Shown: piece by piece, positions 17,084-17,971 of the stretch
Numbering within the stretch: position 1 is the first letter of the stretch
Layout of the letters: every line of letters begins with the position of its first letter
Virus record (IMG/VR): IMGVR_UViG_3300027746_000023
Coordinates: 1-57,528 of that record
Length of the DNA stretch: 57,528 bases
Direction: 5' to 3' (one strand)
DNA from: a virus
Taxonomy: Duplodnaviria > Caudoviricetes
Position numbers and translations under genes: made by a program
The notes under the pieces: model-generated
Told to the model about the DNA's origin: nothing
Database searches by the model: none
The model's input: the letters and a program-made list of their open reading frames with translations, nothing else

Positions 17084-17404
17084 GGTAAACTGCGGCACCC
17101 CGTAAGATGCCGTGTGTTTGCCATGCCCCGCCAAGCCGCGCCCCGCCTAGCCACGCCCCGCCGGGCCTGGCCGCGCCGCGCCGCGCCAAGGCAAACTTCT
17201 GCACCTCCAAAGAGATGCAGTGTGTTTGCCAAGCCTCGCCGCGCCATGCCTTGCCCCGCCGCGCCTTGCCATGCCTCGCCAAGCCGTGTCGAGCAAACTT
17301 CTGCACCTCCGAAGAGATGCAGTGTGTTTGCCATGCCGCGCCGTGCCTTGCCACGCCTCGCCTTGCCATGCCTCGCCGCGCCCCGCCGCGCCTCGCCGCG
17401 CCAT
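17084..17404 (-). ncRNA. Three-unit (GGC-NN)n plus hairpin array, putative guide RNAs (VIPR-like)
   Basis: 5-nt period tracts at 17330-17404, 17228-17292 and 17120-17189, each followed on minus by a GGCAAACACA..GTTT hairpin with compensatory changes. Confidence 0.85.
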
Positions 17405-17410
17405 GAAAAA

Positions 17411-17971
17411 TTATTGCCATTTAACCGTGTAGCGGCCAAAAATTGGGCGAAAGGTTCCAAGCCCCAAGATTCCACCTTGATCCAGCATGGTTTGGAGGCA
17501 TGCCGCTGTGAGTAAGGTGTTTTCTTGGTGTGTAAGTTGCAGTTTGATTTGCCACCCAGGCGGAAGCATTGGCCTTTCTTTTGGGTTAGGCACTCCGTCC
17601 TTAACTCTTGCGACATGCTGCATGACTTCGATTCGAGGGTCTTGCAAAGTGTAAGGTTTTCCTTCTGCGTCAAGTATTTGAGCGTTAAGTGTATCGTCTC
17701 CAATTGCCTCGATTGAGACGAATGACATGACTCCGAGAGCAACATCACGCGCCTGCTTTCCGTAAAAACGCTTGGCCACCGATGGCGTGTTTTGTGCTGC
17801 CAGTAGTGAATAAATGTTGAGGACGGGTATTACCAAATGGCCCGACGGTGTGGTGTAGAATTTTTCCATCACCGGCAGTTTGGTTTTGTTGTCTCCCGCG
17901 TAGCGGTCGAACATGATGGGCCGGATGCCGCGAAGCGTGGCCGTAATTGTAGTTGTTTTGATTTCCTTCAT
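17411..17971 (-). CDS. Stand-alone RAMP/Cas7-like protein (Vipr-like)
   Basis: N-terminal strand ITATLRGIRPIMF, LVIP, RPMLPPGWQIKLQL, C-terminal Gly-rich loop GGILGLGTFRPIFGRYTV; stop lies 6 nt before the array. Confidence 0.75.
   Translation of the reverse strand: MKEIKTTTITATLRGIRPIMFDRYAGDNKTKLPVMEKFYTTPSGHLVIPVLNIYSLLAAQNTPSVAKRFYGKQARDVALGVMSFVSIEAIGDDTLNAQILDAEGKPYTLQDPRIEVMQHVARVKDGVPNPKERPMLPPGWQIKLQLTHQENTLLTAACLQTMLDQGGILGLGTFRPIFGRYTVKWQ

What the first reader, a model, noticed from the sequence alone, without database searches (positions are those of the whole stretch)
17084..17971. Stand-alone Cas7/RAMP-like gene plus (GGC-NN)n hairpin array: a non-CRISPR, probably RNA-guided phage system
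Seen: a 186-aa gene with RAMP-like hallmarks (first strand ITATLRGIRPIMF, C-terminal Gly-rich loop GGILGLGTFRPIFGRY) ends 6 nt before three non-coding units. On the minus strand each unit is a strict 5-nt period of constant GGC plus a variable dinucleotide (15, 12 plus one GAC, and 14 GGC copies), followed by a ~40-nt hairpin. No cas1, cas2, cas5, cas6 or ordinary spacers are present. Established: Cas7/RAMP proteins polymerise on guide RNA at a fixed nucleotide step. Inference: each subunit grips one GGC and displays NN for pairing, so the target is encoded non-contiguously. This fits my recollection of recently reported phage VIPR systems (GGY/NN guides), which I cannot verify here, so it may be a new member rather than a wholly new class.
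Basis: partly seen in the sequence, partly recalled or inferred. Interest (0 to 1): 0.97.

Follow-up and report, generated by a model that had tools for sequence, protein, structure and literature searches.

The report
Phage VIPR system with overlapping accessory gene
This freshwater phage contig carries a VIPR system, a CRISPR-like RNA-guided DNA-binding system first described in 2026, so the kind is already known, but its accessory gene appears to be partly written inside the effector gene in a second reading frame.

Summary
On the minus strand, a 186-aa gene (17411-17971) is followed 8 nt later by three (GGC-NN)n tracts of 15, 12 and 14 units, each ending in a conserved hairpin tail.

This is a VIPR system (Vipr RAMP protein plus GGY/NN vrRNAs), published in bioRxiv preprints from April 2026. 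This scan has already noted VIPR systems on at least eight other genomes.

Evidence:
- The only PDB sequence hit is SUSP1 Vipr.
- 75 of 80 related viral loci carry same-strand GGY-NN arrays; 0 of 80 carry them on the opposite strand.
- Guides turn over completely between close relatives.
- The tail hairpin shows compensatory changes.

I could not establish any target. One unconfirmed candidate matched 22 of 24 bases.

New here, and not in the main texts I searched: the upstream accessory gene is a T5orf172/MUG113 protein, not the SUSP1-type vap1. Its reading frame runs 227 nt into vipr. That frame has no stops (0 observed, 48.7 expected from synonymous shuffles), and vipr synonymous diversity halves within the overlap. 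This suggests a dual-coding region.

Verdict: new member of a known kind, moderate interest.

The parts
17411..17971 (-). vipr: 186-aa minimal RAMP (Cas7-like) effector
17745..18239 (-). Candidate vap: 164-aa protein with an N-terminal T5orf172/MUG113 domain (residues 4-89) and a tail encoded inside vipr
   Evidence: Pfam MUG113 E 3.9e-9 and T5orf172 E 3.6e-8, both above their cut-offs. PHROG 'endonuclease' family E 4e-4. Found directly upstream of vipr in all 24 clade A and B loci. AF2: domain folded, residues 98-164 pLDDT below 50.
17745..17971 (-). Putative dual-coding stretch: vipr codons 1-75 and, in frame +2, the last 75 codons of the T5orf172 ORF
   Evidence: Overlap of 224-263 nt kept in 13 of 13 clade A and 11 of 11 clade B loci. 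Frame +2 stops in codons 1-70: 0 observed against 48.7 expected from synonymous shuffles. vipr synonymous diversity 0.24 inside against 0.46 outside the overlap in clade A, and 0.15-0.22 against 0.32-0.43 in clade B.
17293..17402 (-). vrRNA1: 15 GGC-NN units plus hairpin tail
17191..17290 (-). vrRNA2: one degenerate GAC-AC unit, 12 GGC-NN units and hairpin tail
17084..17187 (-). vrRNA3: 14 GGC-NN units plus hairpin tail; one inner-stem pair is G-C where vr1 and vr2 have U-A

Best explanation
This is a phage-borne VIPR system. The three tracts are most likely transcribed from the minus strand together with vipr and cut into three vrRNAs of about 100 nt. Vipr protomers would polymerise along each vrRNA, one per GGC-NN unit, holding the GGC bases and displaying the NN pairs. 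The filament would then bind double-stranded DNA that matches NN-x-NN-x (one base skipped per unit) and block its transcription, probably in a competing phage, satellite or prophage of the same unknown freshwater host. The hairpin tail, closed by the last GGC-AA unit, caps the 3' end. The upstream T5orf172/MUG113 protein is the likely accessory (Vap) protein.

Shown here: the anatomy, the fold, the family link to SUSP1 Vipr, the co-occurrence of gene and arrays, guide hypervariability and tail covariation.

Inferred from the published SUSP1 and P. fulva work: RNA binding, filament formation, the 1-nt-skip rule and silencing.

Not established: transcription, processing and the targets.
For: Protein:
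- AF2 model pLDDT 87.8.
- 117 Foldseek PDB matches at E<=0.001, led by CRISPR type III and type VII effector-complex chains.
- SUSP1 Vipr (36pp_D) is the only hit of profile A1 in 177,635 PDB sequences, E 5.7e-5; hhalign gives 95% probability and E 4e-8 over 55 C-terminal columns.
- In that alignment, three SUSP1 RNA-contact residues named in 10.64898/2026.04.26.720927 fall on invariant columns of this family: R138 on R133, W178 on F174, R179 on R175.

RNA:
- 41 of 41 units are GGC.
- In 80 related IMG/VR loci, (GGY-NN) runs of 4 or more lie on the vipr strand in 75 loci (213 runs) and on the opposite strand in 0. A GGR control gave 11 and 0 runs; shuffles gave 3.
- In 13 clade A loci (79-100% protein identity), 420 of 422 units have C at Y. 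There are 26 distinct guides, and none of the window's three recurs; best NN identity is 0.62-0.65.
- Across 14 tails, 13 consensus pairs are predicted, 4 of them kept through changes on both sides.

Context:
- The record is a virus record.
- Neighbours are replication and recombination genes: AAA_24, DUF669, PD-(D/E)XK.
- No cas1 or cas2 and no CRISPR-like array.
- No self-target at the 1-nt skip: best 20 of 30, with shuffled guides reaching 23. The discovery paper reports the same for source contigs.
Against: - No target was established. There were 0 exact 1-nt-skip matches to near-full-length guides in the viral collection and 0 matches with up to 3 mismatches in 401 genomes. Only chance-level or unconfirmed hits came from 10-11-unit cores.
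- Sequence similarity to the validated SUSP1 Vipr is confined to the C-terminal 55 residues.
- SUSP1 D177, which contacts G1, aligns with T173 here.
- The tail is a plain two-tier hairpin, not the pseudoknot described for the SUSP1 clade.
- No conserved promoter or terminator was found.
Confidence: 0.9

Rival explanations
1. It is the same VIPR machinery, but it acts by cutting rather than only silencing. The T5orf172/MUG113 accessory protein, from a nuclease-related family, would be brought to the DNA bound by the Vipr filament and would cleave it.
For: - Pfam MUG113 and T5orf172 hits are above their cut-offs, and a PHROG family annotated endonuclease matches at E 4e-4.
- Columns Y5, K14, R25, E54, H58 and E74 are invariant in 19 sequences. 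Matching them to catalytic positions of GIY-YIG nucleases is my recollection, not a tool result.
- The gene is tightly coupled to vipr by the overlap.
- The discovery paper states that some VIPR types pair with predicted nucleases.
Against: [quoted passage not shown]
- The Vap model found no structural match in the PDB; best E 0.47.
- No nuclease activity has been tested.
Confidence: 0.2
2. The arrays act mainly as decoys or weapons against rival VIPR systems, like the solo vrRNAs described for satellites and SUSP1-like phages. They would redirect or target another element's Vipr instead of guiding this phage's own attack on structural or regulatory genes.
For: bioRxiv 10.64898/2026.10.15.759431 (abstract and passages read) describes vrRNAs that redirect Vipr to decoy sites and solo vrRNAs aimed at relatives' vipr genes.
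Against: - A complete vipr gene sits 8 nt upstream of the array.
- The window's guides match no vipr locus among 83 fetched loci better than the control skip lengths do: best 17-21 of 24-30 at skip 1, against 17-20 at skips 0 and 2.
- 135 guides from relatives do not hit this window above controls: 4 reach 80% or more at skip 1, against 5 and 6 at skips 0 and 2.
Confidence: 0.05
3. The tracts are only a GC-rich tandem repeat, or part of a repetitive coding sequence, with no RNA-guide function.
For: Long ORFs can be drawn through the tracts in several frames, for example 189 aa at 16851-17420 and 238 aa at 17032-17748.
Against: - The 3+2 pattern of constant and variable bases holds in 41 of 41 units.
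- The arrays are strictly strand-linked to vipr: 75 of 80 loci against 0 of 80.
- NN turns over completely between loci whose flanking protein is 79-94% identical.
- The tails covary as RNA helices.
- A period of 5 nt is incompatible with a conserved reading frame.
Confidence: 0.02

Closest known systems
VIPR type II of Escherichia phage SUSP1 (reference system; locus read here from KT454805.2)
   Same: - A small single-RRM RAMP effector: 195 aa in SUSP1, 186 aa here.
- A G-loop motif shared at sequence level (G-x-G-x-[WF]-R-P-x-F-G-R).
- vrRNAs made of GGY-NN units (9-16 in the paper; 12-15 here) with a constant structured 3' tail.
- Three vrRNAs directly downstream of the coding genes.
- A phage context with no cas genes.
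   Different: - The proteins align only over the C-terminal 55 residues.
- Units are GGC here and mostly GGT in SUSP1.
- The tail is a two-tier hairpin here and a pseudoknot in SUSP1 (paper).
- There is no upstream vrRNA in this clade.
- The accessory gene lies upstream of and overlaps vipr and is of T5orf172/MUG113 type. SUSP1 vap1 (146 aa, no Pfam hit) lies downstream without overlap.
- SUSP1 vipr has no open +2 frame: 6 stops observed against 7.7 expected.
Other VIPR types (I, III-VII) and staggered vrRNA arrays (10.64898/2026.04.26.720920, Results and legends read)
   Same: The vrRNA units abut almost directly: 7 nt and 2-3 nt lie between one tail and the next first GGC. That resembles the arrays processed from one precursor. 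In some types an accessory gene pairs with vipr.
   Different: I could not assign a type. The type definitions, trees and vap families are in figures and supplementary data that I could not read. The words T5orf172, GIY and MUG113 do not occur in the main text of the discovery preprint. T5orf172 and GIY-YIG do not occur in the full texts of the three VIPR preprints as searched.
Csm3/Cas7 backbone subunits of type III-A and type VII CRISPR effector complexes (e.g. 9g9b_D, 6ifn_F, 8z4j_F)
   Different: - 10-14% sequence identity.
- No CRISPR array, cas1, cas2 or other effector subunits on the contig.
- A 5-nt RNA step with three bases hidden per unit, instead of 6 nt with one base flipped.
- The target is double-stranded DNA, according to the VIPR papers.

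Membership tests
VIPR system | Sequence relationship to an experimentally validated Vipr | tested here: met
   SUSP1 Vipr is the only PDB hit of profile A1, E 5.7e-5. hhalign gives 95% probability and E 4e-8. The relationship is limited to the C-terminal 55 residues.
VIPR system | vrRNA genes: at least 4 tandem YNNGG/GGY-NN units next to vipr, on its strand, with conserved GGY and hypervariable NN | tested here: met
   15, 12 and 14 units, all GGC. 75 of 80 related loci have same-strand arrays and 0 of 80 have opposite-strand arrays. 26 distinct guides in 13 clade A loci.
VIPR system | A constant, structured 3' tail after each repeat tract | tested here: met
   Hairpins with z -3.5 to -5.3. 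13 consensus pairs, 4 of them with compensatory changes, in 14 tails. The form is a hairpin, not the SUSP1-clade pseudoknot.
VIPR system | Minimal non-CRISPR locus, mostly viral or proviral | tested here: met
   Virus record. No cas1 or cas2 and no CRISPR-like array. cas5 and cas6 were not searched separately.
VIPR system | An accessory vap gene of one of the six described families (vap1-6) | not testable with these tools
   A conserved neighbour exists (T5orf172/MUG113). It is unlike SUSP1 vap1 in position, and vap1 has no Pfam hit. The vap family definitions are in supplements I could not open.
VIPR system | vrRNAs are expressed, processed and bound by Vipr | not testable with these tools
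   This needs small-RNA sequencing and pull-down experiments.
VIPR system | Natural targets that match the NN string under the 1-nt-skip rule (at least 80% NN match) | tested here: inconclusive
   There is one candidate at 22 of 24 bases, in frame, in an unrelated 47%-GC viral contig. The backwards control pattern gave 0 hits. All other searches were empty or at chance level. Only exact-pattern scans were possible, not the paper's nhmmer search.
CRISPR-Cas class 1 effector (Cas7/Csm3) | RAMP fold of the backbone subunit | tested here: met
CRISPR-Cas class 1 effector (Cas7/Csm3) | A CRISPR repeat-spacer array and adaptation genes cas1 and cas2 in the locus | tested here: not met
   No cas1 or cas2 on the contig. 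There are no repeat-spacer arrays; the only tandem units are the vrRNAs, spaced 102-108 nt apart. The record is estimated to be 73% complete.

The most novel reading that the evidence does not exclude
In this Vipr subfamily the first third of vipr is dual-coding. A second protein sequence is overprinted on it in frame +2. In this phage it forms the disordered, basic C-terminal tail of a T5orf172/GIY-YIG-type accessory protein. The overlap would then be a built-in coupling device. It could set the Vap:Vipr ratio through ribosomes reading across the vipr start. More boldly, it could tether a nuclease-family protein to the Vipr-vrRNA filament, so that a phage-borne VIPR cuts its target rather than only silencing it. 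Neither an overprinted gene in vipr nor a T5orf172-type vap is mentioned in the main texts of the VIPR preprints I searched; I could not read the supplements.
Probability: 0.3. Interest if true: 0.6.

Novelty: new member of a known kind. Interest (0 to 1): 0.35.

Why it matters
The class is published, so this locus mainly adds a well-resolved example from an uncultivated freshwater phage. It has a GGC-only scaffold, a simple hairpin tail closed by the last repeat unit, and three abutting vrRNAs.

Two things could matter beyond that. First, the accessory gene belongs to a different, nuclease-related family and lies upstream of vipr. That widens the range of partners that phage VIPRs use. If the protein is active, it blurs the published split between silencing phage systems and cutting host systems. 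Second, the stop-free, synonymously constrained second frame inside vipr is a testable case of gene overprinting inside an RNA-guided effector gene. Anyone engineering or deleting vipr in this subfamily would unknowingly alter the accessory protein as well.

Tried and rejected
Target search. I applied the published 1-nt-skip rule in several ways.
- Window against itself: best 20 of 30, 17 of 24 and 18 of 28 bases, no better than shuffled guides or other skip lengths.
- Window guides against 83 loci, and 135 guides from relatives against the window: nothing above the control skip lengths.
- Exact scans of the viral collection with 14-, 11- and 13-unit patterns: 0 hits each.
- 401 genomes sampled from the order of a Rhodoferax MAG that holds a 61% homolog, up to 3 mismatches: 0 hits. 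That host guess rests on a 1.2-kb binned contig and is weak.
- Metagenome scan with 11 units of vr1: 0 hits.
- Metagenome scan with 10 units of vr3: 2 hits, both in the same Kelch-like repeat motif. The flanking units match only 1-2 of 8 bases, for 21 and 22 of 28 overall. I rejected these as chance.
- Viral scans with 10-unit cores: vr1 0 hits, vr3 0 hits, vr2 1 hit. The vr2 hit (L086:6889-6917, minus strand) matches 22 of 24 bases. It is in frame, with the skipped base at the wobble position, in a 132-aa ORF beside a tail-fibre gene. The contig is 47% GC against 56.5% for the window and shares no similarity with it. The backwards control pattern gave 0 hits. I keep it only as an unconfirmed candidate.

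Promoter. A 9-of-12 sigma-70-like site at 17439-17410 would start transcription at the first repeat, but it is no more than shuffles give and its -10 element is not conserved in relatives. Rejected.

Slippery A7 run. The run is not conserved in L009-L011 (A6, A5 or interrupted), while the overlap is kept. I therefore do not support a programmed slip or a fusion. 8 longer family members checked against Pfam carry no T5orf172 domain.

Vap fold. Foldseek against the PDB gave no match better than E 0.47, so the nuclease-family assignment rests on Pfam and PHROG hits only.

Vap-Vipr binding. Complex prediction returned no verdict (score 0.23, mark 0.32). This is evidence neither for nor against binding.

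Expression. No RNA holder is listed for 17000-18300. I did not lay reads.

Other blanks. Rfam: no family in 16800-18300. Pfam, NCBIfam and PADLOC: no family for Vipr. Only PHROG 4652, of unknown function, matches its C-terminus.

Limits of the overprinting tests. In the largest distant clade, synonymous sites are near saturation and show little signal. 7 of its 35 members have early stops in frame +2. The T5orf172 rows used the wrong frame through my indexing slip and are void; one search replaces them.

Full report
WHAT IS THERE

On the minus strand of the window, an ORF at 17411-17971 encodes a 186-aa protein. Eight bases after its stop codon begin three tracts with a strict 5-nt period, GGC followed by two variable bases. 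They have 15 units (17328-17402), 12 units (17226-17285, preceded by a degenerate GAC-AC unit) and 14 units (17118-17187). All 41 units carry GGC. No other (GGC-NN) run of 4 or more units exists on either strand of the 57.5-kb window.

Each tract runs into a 35-nt tail. With the last GGC-AA unit, the tail folds into a two-tier hairpin: an outer stem GCAAAC/GUUUGC and an inner stem of 7-9 pairs. Folding energies are -20.6 to -24.8 kcal/mol, and 0 of 200 shuffles fold as well.

IT IS A PUBLISHED KIND OF SYSTEM

A literature search found bioRxiv 10.64898/2026.04.26.720920. I read its Results and two Methods sections and passages. It describes VIPR systems:
- a minimal RAMP protein, Vipr;
- usually one accessory gene, vap;
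- vrRNAs of 9-16 YNNGG units with conserved GGY, hypervariable NN and a constant structured tail.

The vrRNAs bind double-stranded DNA through the NN pairs, with one target base skipped per unit.

bioRxiv 10.64898/2026.04.26.720927 (part 1 of 2 of the Results read) gives cryo-EM structures. One Vipr protomer sits per repeat, two neighbouring protomers hold each GGY, and the NN pairs are displayed.

bioRxiv 10.64898/2026.10.15.759431 (abstract and passages) shows that SUSP1 uses VIPR against a satellite.

A fourth preprint, 10.64898/2026.10.21.760802 (passages), reports 99 VIPR-like array clusters.

This scan's own notes list VIPR systems on at least eight other genomes.

MEMBERSHIP TESTS: THE PROTEIN

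The protein has no Pfam, NCBIfam or PADLOC family. It has 676 unnamed relatives at E<=0.001 among 747 candidates. An exhaustive profile search finds 380 clusters at 50% identity with E<=0.001.

Against all PDB sequences, the only meaningful hit is 'SUSP1 Vipr protein' (36pp_D): E 0.062 for the single sequence and 5.7e-5 for the family profile, where it is the only hit. hhalign against the SUSP1 gene product read from KT454805.2 gives 95% probability. The shared stretch is the thumb base and the G-loop.

In that alignment, SUSP1 residues R138, W178 and R179, which contact G2 and Y3 of the repeat, fall on R133, F174 and R175. These are invariant in my 38-sequence alignment. SUSP1 D177 aligns with T173.

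MEMBERSHIP TESTS: THE RNA

I fetched 80 related loci from IMG/VR, the best 80 of 104 confirmed relatives at 36-94% identity. Runs of (GGY-NN) with 4 or more units lie on the vipr strand in 75 of the 80 loci (213 runs) and on the opposite strand in none. A GGR control gave 11 and 0 runs, and shuffling gave 3. The five loci without a run are L052, L055, L056, L060 and L061.

Among the 13 loci of the close clade (79-100% protein identity), Y is C in 420 of 422 units. There are 26 distinct guides, and none of the window's three guides recurs elsewhere; best NN identity is 0.62-0.65. The guides therefore turn over far faster than the protein.

The tail structure is supported by covariation. In 14 tails, 13 pairs are predicted and 4 are kept through changes on both sides. 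These include A-U to U-A in the outer stem, which involves the last repeat unit.

CONTEXT

The record is a virus record estimated at 73% complete. Neighbouring minus-strand genes are replication and recombination genes: AAA_24, DUF669 and PD-(D/E)XK. No cas1, cas2 or CRISPR-like array is present. DNA holders of the stretch are mostly freshwater and lake metagenomes.

HOW IT MOST LIKELY WORKS

By analogy with SUSP1 and P. fulva, the array is transcribed with vipr. In relatives it starts 3-32 nt after the stop codon, and no conserved promoter is seen. The transcript would be cut into three vrRNAs; only 7 and 2-3 nt separate one tail from the next first GGC. Each vrRNA would be coated by 12-15 Vipr protomers. 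The filament would bind DNA matching NN-x-NN-x and block transcription.

These steps are inferred, not shown here.

TARGETS

I could not establish any target. There is no self-target, as the discovery paper also reports for source contigs. There is no cross-targeting between this window and the fetched loci above control skip lengths.

Exact-pattern scans gave nothing for near-full-length guides and nothing in 401 sampled genomes. Ten-unit cores gave two results:
- Two chance-level hits for vr3.
- One candidate for vr2: 22 of 24 bases, in frame with the skip base at the wobble position, in a small ORF next to a tail-fibre gene of an unrelated 47%-GC viral contig. A backwards control pattern gave 0 hits.

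I treat the vr2 candidate as unconfirmed.

Read as codon positions 1-2, all three guides spell plausible peptides. It is not evidence of a particular target.

WHAT DIFFERS FROM THE REFERENCE SYSTEM

I read the SUSP1 locus directly. Its order is vrRNA, vipr (195 aa), vap1 (146 aa, no Pfam hit, downstream, not overlapping), then three vrRNAs built mostly from GGT-NN.

In this window, the conserved neighbour lies upstream and is a T5orf172/MUG113-domain protein: Pfam E 3.9e-9 and 3.6e-8, and a PHROG endonuclease family at 4e-4. That these Pfam families belong to the GIY-YIG nuclease clan is my recollection. The structural search did not confirm it.

The main text of the discovery preprint does not contain the words T5orf172, GIY or MUG113. 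The full texts of the three VIPR preprints as searched do not contain T5orf172 or GIY-YIG. I therefore cannot say which VIPR type this is.

THE OVERLAP

The T5orf172 ORF (17745-18239) does not stop before vipr. It runs 227 nt into it in frame +2. The evidence that this is maintained is as follows.
- The overlap (224-263 nt) is present in 13 of 13 loci of the close clade and 11 of 11 of a second clade at 59-64% identity.
- In 20 unique vipr genes of these clades, frame +2 has 0 stops in codons 1-72 and 4.1 per 100 codons afterwards. Frame +1 has 2.3 and 2.2.
- I held each protein and its codon usage fixed and shuffled synonymous codons. This predicts 48.7 frame +2 stops in codons 1-70, against 0 observed. 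Beyond codon 70 it predicts 78.5, against 95 observed.
- In 51 more distant genes, the expected count is 167.3 and the observed count is 33; beyond codon 70 the counts are 309.9 and 290.
- Synonymous diversity of vipr halves in the overlapped part. In the close clade it is 0.24 for codons 2-75 against 0.46 for codons 76-186. In the second clade it is 0.15-0.22 against 0.32-0.43. The step falls at the end of the overlapping ORF.
- SUSP1 vipr lacks the feature: 6 stops observed against 7.7 expected.

Several results temper this.
- The tail is predicted disordered, with pLDDT below 50 for residues 98-164.
- Its amino-acid conservation is largely forced by vipr.
- In the largest distant clade, synonymous sites are saturated and uninformative, and 7 of 35 members have early stops.
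- The sequences are related to one another, so the counts are not independent events.
- The A7 run at the junction is not conserved, and 8 longer family members checked carry no T5orf172 domain. I therefore see no support for a programmed frameshift or a fusion.

I put the odds that the overlap is a maintained dual-coding region at about 0.6. I put the odds that it physically or functionally couples a nuclease-type Vap to Vipr at much less.

VERDICT

The locus is a genuine VIPR system. It is a new member of a kind published in 2026 and already seen repeatedly in this scan.

The added value here is the comparative evidence: array co-occurrence, guide turnover and tail covariation. The T5orf172-type accessory gene overprinted on vipr also deserves a direct test.

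Noticed in passing
The record may be an assembly join of two related phages. The VIPR locus lies in the 1-25883 part. I found no VIPR target anywhere on the contig.
   Followed up: partly
window 14259-14447 (-) and 16671-16850 (-): Two small paralogous ORFs (62 and 59 aa) end in a similar basic stretch followed by a C-P-x-C-x-x-[FY]-H-L-T-S motif, which looks like a zinc ribbon. 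One lies downstream of the helicase-like gene and the other downstream of the vrRNA array. The second lies inside a 140-aa ORF in another frame.
   Followed up: no
L012-L022 (clade B loci), about 330-660 nt upstream of vipr: In the 59-64% clade, further vrRNA-like arrays lie upstream of the T5orf172 gene as well as downstream of vipr. Their tails differ in sequence from the downstream ones. One locus can therefore carry two tail types.
   Followed up: partly
L031 (53 units), L034 (33), L046 (23, 32 and 39), L069 (38), L054 (28): Some distant relatives have uninterrupted GGY-NN runs of 23-53 units, far longer than the 9-16 units per vrRNA in the paper. They may be staggered arrays or very long guides.
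   Followed up: no
P0228 (953 aa): One database protein matches the Vipr profile in 12 short stretches and also carries S-AdoMet synthetase, winged-helix and PGRS-repeat Pfam hits. It looks like a mis-called or repetitive ORF rather than a real fusion.
   Followed up: no
L084:4973-5001 and L085:3740-3768: A 10-unit core of vr3 spells, base for base, a repeat motif (QPGVYGALGI) of Kelch-like repeat proteins on two metagenome contigs. The flanking units do not match, so I judged the hits to be chance.
   Followed up: yes
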